Notes under the pieces: generated by a model
What the model was told of the DNA's origin: nothing
Seen by the model: only the letters and a program-made list of their open reading frames with translations
The model's database searches: none
Part shown: positions 38,186 to 46,207 of the stretch, piece by piece
Numbering within the stretch: the stretch's first letter is position 1
Layout: each line of letters starts with the position of its first letter
From: Candidatus Heimdallarchaeota archaeon
GTDB taxonomy: Archaea; Asgardarchaeota; Heimdallarchaeia; JABLTI01
Length of the DNA stretch: 64,000 nucleotides
Assembly (NCBI GenBank): GCA_018238155.1
Contig: JABCTZ010000006.1
Coordinates: 32,001 to 96,000 of the forward strand
Direction of reading: 5' to 3'
Program-made: the position numbers and the translations under genes

Positions 38186-38314
38186 AACCAACTCGCGCTA
38201 TTATATATTACCCCCAATAGAATAAAAGCAAAATTGCATGGTTAAAAGACATGTAAAGGTTGTACAAACTAATAATTCCTACTGTTAGAAAGCAAATATT
38301 TTTCTAGTGGAAAG
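38186..38314 (+). other. 5' arm of the 16S pre-rRNA processing stem (BHB)
   Basis: GTTAAAAGA(38241)-CATG(38250)-TAA-AGGTTGTACAAAC(38269) pairs with 39980-40008; flanking helices CCTACTGTTA, TGGAAAG and CAACTCGC also pair with the trailer. Confidence 0.9.
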
Positions 38315-38403
38315 TAAGATCTTGTTAATAGTAAACCCGTACACAAAAAACCCTGTTATGTTTATACCATAAATGGTCCATAACTAATCAAAAACAGGAA
38401 TCA

Positions 38404-39894
38404 ACACCGGTTGATCCTGCCGGACCTGACTGCTATTGGAGTAGGACTAAGTCACGCTAGTCAAAGGTGCAGAATGGAGCACCTGGCGTACGGCTCAGTA
38501 ACACGTAGTCAACCTACCCTAAGGACGATGACAACCACGGGAAACTGTGGATAATCTTCGATAGGAAATTTGGCCTGGAACGGTATCTTTCCTAAATCCG
38601 CCTCGCCGTGAGATACGGGCCTTAGGATGGGGCTGCGGCCGATTATGCTAGATGGCGGTGTAAAGGACCACCATGGCGACGATCGGTATGGGCAATGGAA
38701 GTTGGAGCCCAGAGTCGCTAACTGAGACAAGGTAGCGAGCCTTACGAGGCTTAGCGGTCGCGAAAACTCGCCAATGCACGAAAGTGTGAGTGGGCTACTC
38801 CAAGTGTCATTCTTACGGATGACTGTCGCCCAGTATTACAAGCTGGGAAAGGAAGGAGAGGGCAAGGCTGGTGCCAGCCGCCGCGGTAAAACCAGCTCTT
38901 CGAGTGGTCAGGACGTATATTGGGTCTAAAGCGCTCGTAGCCGGACATGTAGGTTCTTGGTTAAATCCGACAGCATAACTGTCGACCTGCTGGGAATACC
39001 GCAAGTCTTGGGAGCGGGAGAGGATAGAGGTAGTCATAGGGCAGGGGTGAAATCCAGTGATCCTATGGCGACCACCGATGGCGAAGGCATCTATCTGGAA
39101 CGTCTCCGACGGTGTGGGGCGAAAGCTAGGGGAGCGACCCGGATTAGATACCCGGTTAGTCCTAGCCGTAAACGATGCCGACTAGGTGTTGCGACGGCCA
39201 AGAGCCGTTGCGGTGCCACAGCGAAGGCGTTAAGTCGGCCACCTGGGGAGTACGGTCGCAAGACTGAAACTTAAAGGAATTGACGGGGGCGCACCACCAG
39301 GAGTGAAGCCTGCTGTTTAATTGGATTCAACGCCGGAAAACTCACCTGGTCAGACTGCAGAATGAAGCTCAGGCTAATGACCTTAGCTAACTCGCAGAGA
39401 GGAAGTGCATGGCCGTCGACAGTTCGTGCTGTGAAGTGTCCTGTTAAGTCAGGCAACGAACGAGATCCACGTCTACAGTTGCCAGCGTGTCCCATCGGGA
39501 TGACGGGAACCCTGTAGAGACTGCCCGACGCTAAGTCGGAGGAAGGAGTGGGCAACGGCAGGTCAGTATGCTCCGATAGACCAGGGCTACACGCGGGCTG
39601 CAATGGTCGGTACAATGGGCCGCGACTCCGAAAGGAGAAGCCAATCCCGAAAGCCGGTCTCAGTCAGGATCGTGGCTTGTAACTCAGCCGCGTGAATATG
39701 GAATTCCTAGTATTCGTGTTTCATCAAGACACGGAGAATACGTCCCTGCGCCTTGTACACACCGCCCGTCGTTGCAACCAACTGTGTTATGGTTGAGGTA
39801 CTTGATTTAATGCGAGTATCAATACTGTGGCATGCTAGGAGGCAAAAGTCGTAACAAGGTAGCCGTAGGGGAACCTGCGGCTGGATCACCTCCT
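38404..39894 (+). rRNA. rrs: 16S rRNA (archaeal), unlinked from 23S
   Basis: CCGGTTGATCCTGCCGGA start, GTGCCAGCCGCCGCGGTAA, ATTAGATACCC, AAACTTAAAGGAATTGACGG, GTACACACCGCCCGTC, AAGTCGTAACAAGG, GGATCACCTCCT end. Confidence 0.99.
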
Positions 39895-39952
39895 CTGAAA
39901 TCGATTGGTCCTCAGGACCGATCTTTAGTCAATGGAGGGGAAATTAAAACCC

Positions 39953-40054
39953 CTTTCCAAGTTTGACTTAATAGTAGGCGTTTGTATAACCTCATGAAAT
40001 CTTTTAACTGCAGAAATAATGGGTAGAAAAAAAGCGAGTTGTGTTAGTTAGGTT
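39953..40054 (+). repeat. 3' arm of the 16S processing stem = repeat copy R1
   Basis: GTTTGTATAACCT-CATG-AAA-TCTTTTAAC (39980-40008) ... GCGAGTTG ... GTTAGGTT, then T-tract. Confidence 0.9.
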
Positions 40055-40231
40055 GTTTTTTTATTATTTTTTGATTATGAAATAAGTGTTTAAGCGTCAT
40101 TTTTCTTGTATAGTTTTCTTCTCTGTAGAACCTTTACTTTTTTTCTTAGAAAATTTGACTATTAGAGCAACAATAGCTATTTCTAGAATAACCGGGATTC
40201 CATACAGAACAAAATAGAAAATAAATGGGCG

Positions 40232-41818
40232 TTACTGTTGTTTTTTTCGAACTATGAATATGATGATAGGTATGGCAATAATTGGTATGATAACTAAAAA
40301 GGCGAAATAGCCATAATTACATTTGGTAGGTTCAACAAAAATCGCAATAAAAGCATCAGTATGATCATCAAAGAAATTACGATAAGCATTCTGCGTAGTA
40401 GGGAAATCACTTGAAAAAGTTTCACCCATTACATAGCAGCTCCCATCACTTGCAACTACAACACTGTTAGCGCGATCAGTAGAATCCCCTCCTAGGTAAG
40501 TACTCCAGAGAAGTGAACCTGATGGAGAGAACTTTGTAATAAAAGCATCATAAATACCTCCTATAGTACTATTAGAAACCCCCTGTACTGGGAAATCACT
40601 CGAGGAAGTCTCACCAACGACATAACAGCTGCCCTCACTGGAGACCGCAATATCGTAACCGCGATCCCCGTTATACCCTCCTAAGAACGTACTCCAGAGT
40701 AAGGATCCATCCTTTGCCAGTTTGACCACGAAAGCATCTCCATACCCGCCGTAGGTGTGATTATGAGCATTGTACATGGGAAAATCAGGTGACCCTGTGA
40801 ATCCAGTAATATAGCAGCTGTCATCCCCTGCTACAGCAATACCAAGAGATTCATCCCAATAACTCCCACCAAAGAAGGTACTCCAGAGTAAAGAACCATT
40901 GGAAGAGAATTTGGTTATAAAAGCATCCCAATCACCAGCATAAGTGTCGTTAATTGCATTTTGTGTGGGAAAATCAATAGAAGAAGTAAATCCTGTGATA
41001 TAACAGCTGTCATCACTTGCTACTGCAACACCATACCCCCATTCTCCACCATACTCCCCGCCCAAATAAGTACTCCAGAGGAGAGCGCCATCAGGGTCGA
41101 ATTTGGATACAAAGACATCATAACCGCCATTAAAAGTGCTATCGAATGCCTTTTCAGTGGGAAAGTTCGTGGAGGACGTCAATCCAGTAACGTAGCAACT
41201 ACCATCACTTGTTGTTGCAACACTACACCCCATATCCCAGTTATTTCCTCCTAGGTAGGTACTCCATAACAGCGTACCATTCGTAGCAAATTTACTAAGA
41301 AAGGCATCGGTAGCAACATCAATCCCACTTCCATAGGTAGCATTGTAAGCATTCTTTGTAGGAAAGTTTGAAGACCAGGTTGTCCCCGTGACGTAGCAGC
41401 TGCCATCACTCGCCACAGCTATATCATAACCATAATCTAAATCACTCCCACCAAGATAGGTACTCCAGCATAGAGTGCCATTTGCAACAAATTTGGACAC
41501 AAAAGCATCTCTACCACTATATGTATAATTGAATGCATGAAGCGTTGGGAAATCTCCTGAGGAGGTTCTTCCTGTGAGATAATAGCTGCCATCCCCTGCC
41601 ACAGCAATGCCTAAGCCAATTTCTGTTCCACCCATGCCACCAAAAAAAGTACAATACTCAAGAGTAGGCATAGCAGTCTTCTGGACTCCAAATTGAGTCT
41701 GAGGAAGTATTTGTCCACTGCCAAAATTCAGAGGAAAGGGGGAACAAAGTATTAGAATTACAAAAAGAACGCCACAAGTCCCTCTCTTGCTTCGATTGGA
41801 AAATATCGTTTGACCCAT
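40232..41818 (-). CDS. SBBP beta-propeller repeat surface protein
   Basis: Signal peptide, about 7 repeats of WSTYLGG..D.G..IAV.SDGSCYVTG.T.S.DFP...DAFxxKF, C-terminal TM and RKK; visibly more G+C than flanks. Confidence 0.85.
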   Translation of the reverse strand: MGQTIFSNRSKRGTCGVLFVILILCSPFPLNFGSGQILPQTQFGVQKTAMPTLEYCTFFGGMGGTEIGLGIAVAGDGSYYLTGRTSSGDFPTLHAFNYTYSGRDAFVSKFVANGTLCWSTYLGGSDLDYGYDIAVASDGSCYVTGTTWSSNFPTKNAYNATYGSGIDVATDAFLSKFATNGTLLWSTYLGGNNWDMGCSVATTSDGSCYVTGLTSSTNFPTEKAFDSTFNGGYDVFVSKFDPDGALLWSTYLGGEYGGEWGYGVAVASDDSCYITGFTSSIDFPTQNAINDTYAGDWDAFITKFSSNGSLLWSTFFGGSYWDESLGIAVAGDDSCYITGFTGSPDFPMYNAHNHTYGGYGDAFVVKLAKDGSLLWSTFLGGYNGDRGYDIAVSSEGSCYVVGETSSSDFPVQGVSNSTIGGIYDAFITKFSPSGSLLWSTYLGGDSTDRANSVVVASDGSCYVMGETFSSDFPTTQNAYRNFFDDHTDAFIAIFVEPTKCNYGYFAFLVIIPIIAIPIIIFIVRKKQQ

Positions 41819-45303: not shown

Positions 45304-45374
45304 TTCTTCTCACAATTATATTTATCTGGCTGACTAATAAAGTTTTTTTGGATTTCTAACAAATTTTTCCATAA

Positions 45375-45452
45375 TAGGAATTTGTTTACACAAAACATCT
45401 TGAAATCTTTTACCAAGCAAGAAGTGAAAAATAGTTTTGTACGAGTTAGGTT
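45375..45452 (+). repeat. R5: truncated 16S trailer-arm copy
   Basis: TGAAATCTTTTACCAAGCAAGAAGTG...TTGTACGAGTTAGGTT. Confidence 0.85.
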
Positions 45453-45592
45453 GTTCTACTTTTATTTGACTCTAATTTTTTTGATTTAGATTTTAAAAAG
45501 AATGAAACAAGAAATAAGAATTTCAAAATATCTTAAGATAGTGGATTTTACATTAAAAAAACCGTTTTGGTAACTAATTTTCTGTATTGTTT

Positions 45593-45850
45593 TTACTGAA
45601 GCATTTCGATGAGTTTATCTTTCGAGATATTGTTCCAAATTGCTACCTTCGTTAAAATATCGTTTAGAGTTCCTTTTGCAATCTCTTTATGTGTAACAAT
45701 AGTAATATGATGTTCTCCTGCTTCCCCTTTCTTTGTTAGTCTTATATGACTTCCTTTTTGTCTTACTACCCGATAATCTAGTTTATTCAGTAGCTTTAGT
45801 AGTTTCTTTCCACTAACTACTGGAAGCTTTGGCAATTGCTTGCACCTCAA
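45593..45850 (-). CDS. hicA: HicA toxin
   Basis: KLPVVSGKKLLK..VVRQKGSHIRL..HKEIAKGTL. Confidence 0.85.
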   Translation of the reverse strand: MRCKQLPKLPVVSGKKLLKLLNKLDYRVVRQKGSHIRLTKKGEAGEHHITIVTHKEIAKGTLNDILTKVAIWNNISKDKLIEMLQ

Positions 45851-46049
45851 ATTCAGACAAAGTTAAAATTCTTATCGTTTCTGTTTGCAATTCTTCCTCA
45901 AAGTGCACCTCAACGGCTTCTTCAATATTCTTTCGTAATTCATCTAAGGTTTTCCCTTGAGTAAAAATATCTGCATCCATTCCTCTTGCACACCAATTTC
46001 CCTCTTCATCTTGATATATTTCTAATTTTATTAGACGCATTAATTTCAC
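45813..46049 (-). CDS. hicB: HicB-like antitoxin
   Basis: QDEEGNWCA..IFTQGKTLDELRKNIEEAV. Confidence 0.8.
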   Translation of the reverse strand: MKLMRLIKLEIYQDEEGNWCARGMDADIFTQGKTLDELRKNIEEAVEVHFEEELQTETIRILTLSEFEVQAIAKASSS

Positions 46050-46117
46050 CTAATTATATCTTCTTTTTCTTTAATTATAAACTCATTTATTATTGATTAT
46101 ATTTAAAACTCATTCTC

Positions 46118-46207
46118 TTTTCATGTTCGATCTAAAAGTAGGATTTGTTTAACCTCATGAAATCTTTTACCAAGCAAGGAGCGAATAAATTATTGTGCTA
46201 GTTAGGT
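46118..46207 (+). repeat. R6: 16S trailer-arm copy with intact BHB half
   Basis: GTAGGATTTGTTTAACCT-CATG(46156)-AAA-TCTTTTACCAAGCAAGGAGCG...TTGTGCTAGTTAGGT. Confidence 0.9.

What the first reader, a model, noticed from the sequence alone, without database searches (positions are those of the whole stretch)
38186..46207. One leader arm, three intact BHB partner arms: possible alternative pre-rRNA splicing and circularisation
Seen: leader GTTAAAAGA-CATG-TAA-AGGTTGTACAAAC forms a canonical 3-4-3 BHB with R1 (CATG 39993, AAA bulge). R2 (CATG 43268) and R6 (CATG 46156) keep the exact AACCT-CATG-AAA-TCTTTT half. Their distal flanks (TCTTTTGTCATGCAA; TCTTTTACCAAGCAA) pair with leader TTGCATGGTTAAAAGA at least as extensively as R1 does. 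R3-R5 have lost the CATG helix. Established: archaeal EndA cuts BHBs in pre-rRNA and the excised pre-16S is ligated into a circle. Inference: read-through transcripts could use R2 or R6 and give larger circles carrying cassette sequence. Deletion between repeats would also still leave a processable 16S, making the locus tolerant of cassette gain and loss.
Basis: partly seen in the sequence, partly recalled or inferred. Interest (0 to 1): 0.75.

Follow-up and report, generated by a model that had tools for sequence, protein, structure and literature searches.

The report
Spare 16S splice arms are insertion relics
Behind the only 16S rRNA gene of this Heimdall-group Asgard archaeon, copies of the downstream half of the gene's RNA-processing stem separate inserted gene cassettes; two copies could still form the splice site, but they look like leftovers of DNA insertion, not alternative splice sites.

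Summary
One leader arm (38241-38269) forms a canonical 3-4-3 bulge-helix-bulge (BHB) with R1 (39980-40008). R2 (CATG 43268) and R6 (CATG 46156) keep the exact 18-mer and co-fold into the same BHB. R3-R5 do not.

The arms belong to a roughly 75-nt unit: the whole 3' strand of the pre-16S processing stem plus its T-tract. That unit recurs eight times (39980-48978) and bounds seven cassettes: four toxin-antitoxin pairs and surface-protein genes. R2 also carries the last 22 nt of the 16S.

The same layout recurs in a same-genus genome (four copies), in three genomes of another family of the class, and on metagenome contigs. It also bounds the published Heimdallarchaeum elements HeimM2 and HeimV2. 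The copies are best read as att-like duplications left by serial insertion at the 16S tail.

Alternative circles are disfavoured. A T7+T6 tract follows R1, 8 more T-runs lie before R2 and 21 before R6, and most cassettes are antisense. R1 is the best partner, and R2 and R6 carry derived changes in the inner helix.

This scan has noted the same layout before on other archaeal DNA.

The parts
38186..38198 (+). Outer 5' arm of the pre-16S processing stem (AACCAACTCGCGC). It pairs with the GCGAGTTG.GTT tail of R1.
   Evidence: Co-fold. The equivalent outer helix in the same-genus genome G010 has a different sequence on both strands.
38234..38269 (+). The only leader (5') BHB arm: TTGCATG extension, H1 GTTAAAAGA, CATG, bulge TAA, inner helix AGGTTGTACAAAC.
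   Evidence: (I4). Unique in the window and in the genome.
38404..39894 (+). 16S rRNA gene, the only one found in the assembly.
   Evidence: Rfam RF01959, 1391 bits. The only other match to its 3' end in the genome is R2.
39895..39979 (+). Trailer hairpins between the 16S 3' end and the BHB arm.
   Evidence: RNAalifold on six trailer copies: 12 of 19 pairs have compensatory changes.
39980..40072 (+). R1, the working trailer arm: inner helix, CATG 39993, bulge AAA, H1, tail ending in GTTAGGTT (40047-40054), then T7 (40056) and T6 (40067).
40232..43015 (-). Cassette 1: an SBBP beta-propeller repeat protein (528 aa) and a Peptidase_C13-like protein (332 aa).
   Evidence: Pfam.
43149..43320 (+). 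R2: the last 22 nt of the 16S, diverged trailer hairpins, an intact BHB arm (CATG 43268) and a decayed tail.
   Evidence: D6 and D9. Homology runs from -22 to +111 at 86%. Co-fold.
43353..43801 (+). Cassette 2: a small Phd-like ORF and a broken ParE/RelE toxin gene, of which only the C-terminal 35 aa are in frame.
43832..43898 (+). R3: BHB lost (central helix 1/4); tail TGCGAGTTAGGTT exact.
44027..44603 (+). Cassette 3: a DUF433 and DUF5615 (PIN-like) pair. An orthologous cassette sits in G010 between G010-type repeats.
   Evidence: Pfam; alignment.
44604..44672 (+). R4: BHB lost (inner 6/13, central 3/4); bulge, H1 and tail kept.
44683..45303 (-). Cassette 4: a second, diverged DUF433 and DUF5615 pair.
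   Evidence: Pfam.
45384..45452 (+). R5: near-BHB (CTTG, AACAT); tail kept.
45593..46049 (-). Cassette 5: a HicA and HicB-like pair.
   Evidence: Pfam.
46105..46208 (+). R6: a long copy with an intact BHB arm (CATG 46156) and the tail TGCTAGTTAGGTC.
   Evidence: (D5).
46256..47536 (-). Cassette 6: a 426-aa protein with hydrophobic stretches near both ends and no family match.
47540..47585 (+). R7: tail-only copy (TGCGAGTTAGATT at 47565) followed by a T-tract.
47589..48904 (-). Cassette 7: two ORFs (273 and 145 aa) with no clear family.
48920..48990 (+). R8: tail-only copy (TGCGAGTTAGGTT at 48966) followed by T7. This is the end of the array.

Best explanation
The extra BHB partner arms are relics of DNA insertion, not alternative RNA-processing sites.

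The 3' end of the single 16S gene and its trailer act as an insertion hot spot for accessory-gene cassettes. The trailer here means the 3' strand of the processing stem, with its BHB arm, outer helix and oligo-T stop. Each insertion leaves one more copy of that trailer segment.

I infer that the incoming DNA supplies a working replacement for the 16S tail and processing arm, as elements that target tRNA genes do. The previous trailer is then pushed downstream, where it decays.

On this reading R1 is the arm used for EndA cleavage and circularisation. R2 and R6 are the two least decayed displaced copies, R3-R5 are further decayed, and R7 and R8 keep only the tail.

Shown: the repeat anatomy, the array, its recurrence in relatives, and the canonical BHB with R1.

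Inferred: the direction and order of insertion, the replacement-trailer idea, and the enzyme, which is unknown.
For: 1. The unit is the whole 3' strand of the processing stem. It recurs eight times on one strand, only in this array. The copies share a right-hand end at the tail and T-tract and differ at the left end.

2. R2 starts 22 nt inside the 16S. Other genomes show the same kind of left boundary: -20 in G016, at least -39 in G012 (the limit of the query, which ended inside the 16S insert, so the true 16S 3' end lies further on) with its third copy starting at the GGATCACC of the 16S 3' end, -15, +15 and +31 in G010, and +16 and +24 in G026.

3. The layout recurs widely.
- G010 (same genus) and its metagenome contig have four copies.
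- G004 has two copies with HicAB-like and DUF433-like cassettes.
- G012 has three copies around SIR2-STAND, HEPN and NosD genes.
- Metagenome contigs carry pseudo-16S 3' ends with mutated anti-Shine-Dalgarno sequences, and one holds an 803-nt RelE-like cassette.

4. G016 and G026 match the published Ca. Heimdallarchaeum genomes by size and by a tRNA with a TCT-type anticodon downstream. There Wu et al. 2022 (PMC8813620) placed the mobile elements HeimM2 and HeimV2 'exactly between' the 16S and tRNA-Arg. I find those stretches subdivided and bounded by trailer copies at +6629, +38004 and +40768.

5. The same DUF433/DUF5615 cassette is joined to G000-type repeats here and to G010-type repeats there, at different trailer positions.

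6. Trailer hairpins covary among the copies. R1 against R2 has one compensatory change and two one-sided changes that keep the pair, out of five differences. So the copies were working trailers and not in-place neutral duplicates.

7. R1 is the best partner and keeps the genus-wide inner helix, whereas R2 and R6 carry two derived changes each.
Against: - No recombinase is encoded in or next to any array examined. There is no Phage_integrase in the window. The genome has two PF00589 hits, both on other contigs, and G016 and G012 have none at all.
- A LAGLIDADG gene accompanies only the G016 element. In this genome the LAGLIDADG hits lie elsewhere, mostly inside long ORFs.
- No empty site or excised circle was seen. 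The one same-genus contig with 4 kb behind its 16S shares no downstream synteny with this window.
- The 18-mer is perfect in R2 and R6 while their flanks are only 65-85% identical. A neutral-relic model explains this only with gene conversion, a recombination core, or recent arrival.
- Concerted evolution of an old, vertically inherited array could mimic points 3 and 5.
Confidence: 0.68

Rival explanations
1. Read-through pre-rRNA uses R2 or R6 as an alternative BHB partner, so EndA and RtcB produce larger circles (about 5.0 or 7.9 kb) that carry cassette sequence, with some role in expression or regulation.
For: - R2 and R6 co-fold with the leader into a canonical 3-4-3 BHB at dG -32.2 and -28.7.
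- The 18-mer is exact in both, although their flanks have diverged.
- EndA (two paralogues) and RtcB are present.
- In G010, three of four copies keep the arm exactly.
Against: - T7 and T6 follow directly after R1, and there are 8 and then 13 further T>=5 runs on the way. Every repeat copy carries its own T-tract.
- Cassettes 1, 4, 5, 6 and 7 would be transcribed antisense.
- R1 is the most stable partner and is nearest to the 16S.
- In other genomes the spare arms lie 6.6, 14.5 and 38 kb away, too far for routine read-through.
- Conservation in R4 and R5 is kept in the bulge and H1 but not in the helices that define a BHB.
Confidence: 0.1
2. An old, vertically inherited array made by local duplication or unequal crossing-over of the trailer. 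The copies are kept alike within each genome by gene conversion with the working trailer. Cassettes were shuffled by homologous recombination between repeats, not inserted from outside.
For: - The repeats are genome-specific, while one cassette is shared between G000 and G010.
- No recombinase is linked to the arrays.
- Exact 18- to 37-nt blocks in R2 and R6 look like conversion patches.
Against: - The cassette content differs completely between families (TA pairs, an LRR protein, SIR2-STAND, a 38-kb virus-like element). It includes elements that CRISPR spacers target, according to PMC8813620.
- The same cassette is joined at different trailer positions in two genomes.
- Compensatory differences between R1 and R2 argue for separate functional histories.
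Confidence: 0.15
3. An integron-like platform. A recombinase encoded elsewhere acts on the repeats as attC-like sites (GTTAGGT resembles the GTTRRRY core) and moves single cassettes in and out.
For: - Four cassettes of about 770 bp each hold one TA module and end in a repeat.
- The tail motif fits GTTRRRY, and GTTTAAC and GTTCAAC fit RYYYAAC.
- Integrons are reported in Archaea (PMC9668308, listed).
Against: - There is no IntI-type gene near the array.
- The repeats do not fold into hairpins on either strand, with z-scores from -0.5 to +1.7.
- The repeats are copies of the host's own 16S trailer, and some carry 16S sequence.
- The cassettes lie in both orientations.
Confidence: 0.07

Closest known systems
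Archaeal pre-rRNA processing stems with a bulge-helix-bulge site, cut by EndA and ligated by RtcB into circular pre-16S (e.g. PMC7038931, PMC7714728, PMC10351888, listed)
   Same: Leader plus R1 form a long leader-trailer helix with a canonical 3-4-3 BHB around the 16S. The structure covaries in a congener, and both enzymes are encoded.
   Different: Here the 3' arm exists in several further copies downstream, two of them still BHB-competent. No described system uses alternative distal 3' arms.
Integrative elements and genomic islands at the 3' end of tRNA or tmRNA genes, with att duplication and tandem accretion (e.g. the ssrA islands of Dehalococcoides, PMC3146451, listed; details from my own knowledge)
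   Same: The direct repeats consist of the 3' part of a single-copy RNA gene plus downstream sequence. Several elements are stacked in tandem, and the gene stays intact.
   Different: The target is the 16S rRNA tail and its processing stem. The repeats are long (70-280 nt) with variable left ends. No integrase is encoded in the elements.
HeimM2 and HeimV2 of Ca. Heimdallarchaeum (Wu et al. 2022, PMC8813620)
   Same: Mobile elements sit between the only 16S gene and the next gene in the same archaeal class. I matched G016 and G026 to these genomes by size and gene content.
   Different: My text searches of the paper for 'flanked', 'direct repeat' and 'attachment site' found nothing, so it appears not to describe trailer or BHB-arm duplications or TA cassette arrays. 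It proposes a LAGLIDADG enzyme, which is absent from the array studied here.
Integron cassette arrays, especially sedentary chromosomal integrons with species-specific attC repeats (own knowledge; archaeal integrons in PMC9668308)
   Same: Short single-function cassettes, many of them TA modules, are separated by a repeat that is homogeneous within a genome and differs between genomes.
   Different: There is no IntI and no attC hairpin. The repeat is the host's rRNA trailer, and the cassettes lie in both orientations.
Split and tri-split tRNA genes joined through BHB formed in trans (own knowledge; Nanoarchaeum, Caldivirga)
   Same: One RNA arm could in principle pair with alternative partner arms to form a BHB.
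   Different: In those systems the alternative partners are separately transcribed and each product is needed. Here nothing shows that the spare arms are transcribed or used.

Membership tests
Canonical archaeal BHB (hBHBh') pre-rRNA processing site | Two 3-nt bulges on opposite strands, separated by a 4-bp helix and flanked by helices | tested here: met
   Leader with R1, R2 and R6. Not met for R3-R5, and absent in R7 and R8.
Canonical archaeal BHB (hBHBh') pre-rRNA processing site | The structure is conserved with compensatory change in relatives | tested here: met
   In G010 the central helix is CACG/CGTG against CATG/CATG, H1 is GTAGATAA/TTATCTAC against GTTAAAAGA/TCTTTTAAC, and the outer helix is also changed on both strands. 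Only one relative had both arms on its contig.
Canonical archaeal BHB (hBHBh') pre-rRNA processing site | Splicing endonuclease and RtcB ligase are encoded | tested here: met
   PF01974 twice (93 and 65 bits) and PF01139 (573 bits) in the same assembly.
Canonical archaeal BHB (hBHBh') pre-rRNA processing site | Cleavage and circularisation at the site in vivo, for R1, R2 or R6 | not testable with these tools
   No transcriptome of this organism was available.
Integron | An IntI-type tyrosine recombinase next to the array, with attI and Pc | tested here: not met
   No recombinase domain was found in the 17 ORFs scanned between 31.5 and 51.6 kb. The two PF00589 hits lie on contigs C8 and C19.
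Integron | attC sites fold as imperfect single-strand hairpins | tested here: not met
   DNA folds of the six repeat units, two of them also on the other strand (eight folds): minimum free energy -0.8 to -5.3 kcal/mol, z-scores -0.5 to +1.7.
Integrative elements at 3' ends of RNA genes (tRNA/tmRNA type) | Direct repeats made of the 3' part of the target RNA gene bound the inserted DNA, and the gene stays intact | tested here: met
   R2 starts at -22 of the 16S. G016 starts at -20, G012 at -39 or further, and G010 at -15.
Integrative elements at 3' ends of RNA genes (tRNA/tmRNA type) | The element encodes its own integrase next to one att site | tested here: not met
   There is none in the cassettes here or in the G010, G012, G016 or G026 elements examined.
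Integrative elements at 3' ends of RNA genes (tRNA/tmRNA type) | Empty sites or excised circles exist in the population | not tested
The one same-genus contig that extends 4 kb past its 16S is not syntenic downstream.
Alternative BHB partner usage (as in tri-split tRNAs) | Alternative partner arms are transcribed and joined to the common arm | not testable with these tools
   Sequence context argues against it (T-tracts, antisense cassettes), but there are no RNA data.

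The most novel reading that the evidence does not exclude
The spare BHB arms are used. A minority of read-through pre-rRNA, or cassette transcripts pairing in trans with the single leader arm, is cut by EndA at leader-R2 or leader-R6 and ligated by RtcB. This would give large circular RNAs that carry cassettes, or would titrate the leader and so couple cassette content to 16S maturation. 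A related unexcluded reading: the common 3' end and variable 5' ends of the copies reflect capture through an RNA or cDNA intermediate of the pre-16S tail.
Probability: 0.08. Interest if true: 0.85.

Novelty: new variant of a known kind. Interest (0 to 1): 0.45.

Why it matters
Taken alone, the spare splice arms are probably inert. Their origin is the useful part.

In Heimdall-group Asgard archaea, the tail of the single 16S rRNA gene and its processing stem serve as a landing pad. Toxin-antitoxin, defence, surface-protein and virus-like elements pile up there, and each insertion appears to regenerate the RNA-processing arm.

- This extends the tRNA-gene att-site principle to an rRNA processing stem.
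- It gives sequence boundaries to the published HeimM2 and HeimV2 elements.
- It points to an unidentified insertion enzyme, because no integrase is linked to the arrays.
- It offers a natural test bed for how far an archaeal splicing endonuclease discriminates between competing BHB partners.

Tried and rejected
1. attC-like hairpins: the repeats fold no better than shuffles on either strand.

2. A linked integrase: none was found near the array. There are two PF00589 hits on other contigs, and none at all in G016 or G012.

3. LAGLIDADG as the general enzyme: it is present next to the G016 element only. The seven hits in this genome lie elsewhere, mostly inside long ORFs that look like inteins.

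4. Extra leader arms that could pair with R2 or R6 locally: there are none in the window or the genome.

5. Further arrays in this genome: the tail motif and the repeat profile are confined to this locus, apart from one solitary arm on contig C4. Rfam finds no RNA gene beside that arm.

6. An empty-site comparison with same-genus genomes: G007's downstream DNA is unrelated, and the G005 contig ends at the 16S.

7. A neutral-decay statistic for the exact 18-mer. For R1 against R2 (86% over 135 nt) a perfect 18-nt run somewhere is expected about once, so that comparison alone is uninformative. For R6, whose flanks are less similar, uniform decay fits poorly, so I do not claim neutrality. A recombination core or gene conversion are equally possible.

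8. NCBIfam on the unnamed cassette proteins: nothing found.

Strain-level variants of the cassettes could therefore not be fetched.

10. A Xer/dif-module analogy was considered but not tested.

Full report
**What is in the sequence**

The window holds one archaeal 16S rRNA gene (38404-39894, Rfam RF01959, 1391 bits) and no tRNA.

The leader reads GTTAAAAGA-CATG-TAA-AGGTTGTACAAAC at 38241-38269. The trailer reads GTTTGTATAACCT-CATG-AAA-TCTTTTAAC at 39980-40008. The two are an inverted repeat (I4). RNAcofold pairs them into a canonical bulge-helix-bulge: two 3-nt bulges on opposite strands around the 4-bp CATG helix.

The 18-mer AACCTCATGAAATCTTTT is exact at 39988, 43263 and 46151, and a copy with two mismatches lies at 45394. 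That is 4 matches at up to 3 mismatches against 0.41 expected, and none of 100 shuffles reached 4.

Co-folded with the leader, R2 and R6 give the same 3-4-3 motif. The energies are -32.2 and -28.7 kcal/mol, against -35.9 for R1. R3-R5 do not form it.

| Copy | Inner helix (of 13) | Central helix (of 4) | H1 (of 9) |
|---|---|---|---|
| R1 | 13 | 4 | 9 |
| R2 | 12 | 4 | 8 |
| R6 | 11 | 4 | 8 |
| R3 | 10 | 1 | 8 |
| R4 | 6 | 3 | 8 |
| R5 | 6 | 3 | 8 |

These are pairs formed with the leader. There is one leader arm in the window and one in the whole 4.08-Mb assembly.

The six copies align over about 75-80 nt (A1). The unit runs from the inner helix through TCTTTTACC to a tail, TGCGAGTTAGGTT, and then a T-rich stretch.

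The tail pairs with the far-upstream leader segment AACCAACTCGCGC (38186-38198). In the same-genus genome G010 the equivalent outer helix, the H1 helix and one pair of the central helix all differ on both strands (CACG/CGTG for CATG/CATG). So the whole stem is a real RNA structure, and the repeat is its complete 3' strand.

Two more copies keep only the tail: R7 at 47565 and R8 at 48966. Genome-wide, the tail motif and a profile of the unit are confined to this array, apart from one solitary arm on contig C4.

R2 is special. It begins 22 nt inside the 16S (AACCTGCGGCTGGATCACCTCCT) and runs 86% identical to position +111.

**What lies between the copies**

| Cassette | Content | Strand |
|---|---|---|
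| 1 | SBBP propeller protein and C13-peptidase-like protein | - |
| 2 | Phd-like ORF with a broken ParE | + |
| 3 | DUF433 / DUF5615 | + |
| 4 | A second, diverged DUF433 / DUF5615 | - |
| 5 | HicA / HicB | - |
| 6 | ORF for a predicted membrane protein, no family match | - |
| 7 | Two ORFs with no clear family | - |

The array is 32% G+C, like the rest of the window. No recombinase was found in the ORFs scanned between 31.5 and 51.6 kb.

**Relatives**

The same architecture recurs.

- G010 (same genus) and its metagenome contig carry four trailer copies, at +0, +1417, +2190 and +3933 from the 16S end. Three of them have an exact arm.
- Cassette 2 of G010 is the orthologue of cassette 3 here, at about 74% nucleotide identity. 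It is flanked by G010-type repeats and joined at different trailer positions.
- G004 (same genus) has HicAB-like and DUF433-like cassettes between two copies, one of them with a 16S 3' end.
- G012, in another family, has three copies that bound 14.5 kb and 1.7 kb of SIR2-STAND, HEPN and NosD genes.
- G016 has a copy spanning -20 to +113 at +6629, with an LRR protein in between. A LAGLIDADG ORF and a tRNA follow it.
- G026 has copies at +38004 and +40768.

G016 and G026 are single contigs of 3.08 and 3.33 Mb. They match the two Ca. Heimdallarchaeum genomes of Wu et al. 2022. [quoted passage not shown]

My text searches of that paper for 'flanked', 'direct repeat' and 'attachment site' found nothing. 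The trailer duplications therefore seem not to have been described there.

A metagenome scan with the arm found further contigs. Some carry pseudo-16S 3' ends with a mutated anti-Shine-Dalgarno sequence in front of the arm. One has two arms 803 nt apart around a RelE-like gene.

**Reading**

These facts fit serial insertion at the 16S tail, as at tRNA and tmRNA genes. Direct repeats are made of the 3' part of the RNA gene plus downstream sequence. Elements are stacked in tandem. The gene stays intact.

Two further points refine this.

This is expected if incoming DNA must supply everything needed to finish and process the 16S from its insertion point onward.
- The hairpins between the 16S end and the arm covary among the copies. 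Twelve of 19 pairs have compensatory changes. Between R1 and R2, four of five stem differences keep pairing.

So R1 and R2 diverged under structural constraint, as working trailers of different lineages would. In-place neutral duplicates would not show this. The enzyme is unknown. No integrase is linked to any array, and G016 and G012 have no PF00589 hit at all.

An integron is excluded as a family. There is no IntI, and the repeats do not self-fold, with z-scores from -0.5 to +1.7.

**The alternative-splicing idea**

It is structurally possible. The enzymes are encoded: two EndA paralogues and RtcB. The sequence context argues against routine use.

- R1 is followed at once by T7 (40056) and T6 (40067). 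Eight T>=5 runs lie before R2 and 13 more before R6, and every copy brings its own T-tract. That archaeal RNA polymerase stops at oligo-T is established knowledge. That it stops here is inference.
- A read-through transcript would be antisense to cassettes 1, 4, 5, 6 and 7.
- R1 is the nearest and most stable partner.
- R2 and R6 each carry two substitutions in the inner helix, which R1 and all G010 copies keep. The metagenome relatives also keep it, but they were selected with that very sequence, so they are not independent.
- In R4 and R5 the bulge AAA and TCTTTTACC survive although the BHB helices are gone. The conserved block therefore does not track BHB function. It could be a recombination core or a gene-conversion patch.
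- In other genomes the spare arms lie 6.6 to 38 kb away.

I cannot call the exact 18-mer in R6 neutral, and no RNA data were available, so trace use remains open at roughly 10%. The differing cassette sets of relatives agree with it.

**Relation to earlier notes of this scan**

Other first readers noted the same array as integron-like and noted R2's start in helix 45. Follow-ups on other archaeal genomes (Hodarchaeota, Thorarchaeota, Micrarchaeota, Iainarchaeota) reached the same insertion-scar reading. My tests agree with them. I did not rely on them as evidence.

**Limits**

- Only one relative had both stem arms on a contig.
- Matching G016 and G026 to the published genomes rests on size and gene content.
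- The order and direction of the insertions are inferred.

Noticed in passing
L041:1490-1555 (G000 contig C4, 44640-44700): A solitary copy of the BHB 3' arm with a degenerate tail (GTATAACCTCATGAAATTTTTCC...GTGTGAGTTTGAAG). It lies far from any rRNA gene, and no partner arm or Rfam RNA is nearby. It may be the end of a relocated cassette.
   Followed up: partly
L043:18384-18425 (G012); also split matches in G043, G044, G047 and G049: In another family of the class, the 16S 3' end carries a hairpin-forming insert of about 31-33 nt between CCTGCGG and GGATCACC. This is in the helix-45 loop, the same spot where many trailer duplications begin. It could be a mini-intron or an expansion.
   Followed up: no
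window 43544-43801: The ParE/RelE-type toxin gene of cassette 2 is broken. A short N-terminal frame stops after about 21 codons, and only the last 35 residues match ParE_toxin in another frame. The upstream Phd-like ORF is intact.
   Followed up: partly
window 40398-41610 (- strand gene 40232-41818): Seven tandem 189-nt (63-aa) repeats, 60-73% identical, lie inside the SBBP beta-propeller gene of cassette 1.
   Followed up: no
window 47480-47545 and 48885-48935: The 5' regions of the minus-strand genes 46256-47536 and 48467-48904 are homologous to each other and abut R7 and R8. This suggests a shared promoter or 5' UTR module in these two cassettes.
   Followed up: no
window 40022-40030, 44644-44650, 45423-45427: Most repeat units contain an internal A-run (a T-run on the minus strand) as well as the terminal T-tract. 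Each unit could therefore act as a two-way transcription stop between cassettes.
   Followed up: no
G000 contig C1, 134052-136836 (outside the window): The 23S rRNA gene lies about 62 kb downstream of the 16S on the same strand, so the rRNA genes are unlinked. The contig ends inside the 23S.
   Followed up: no
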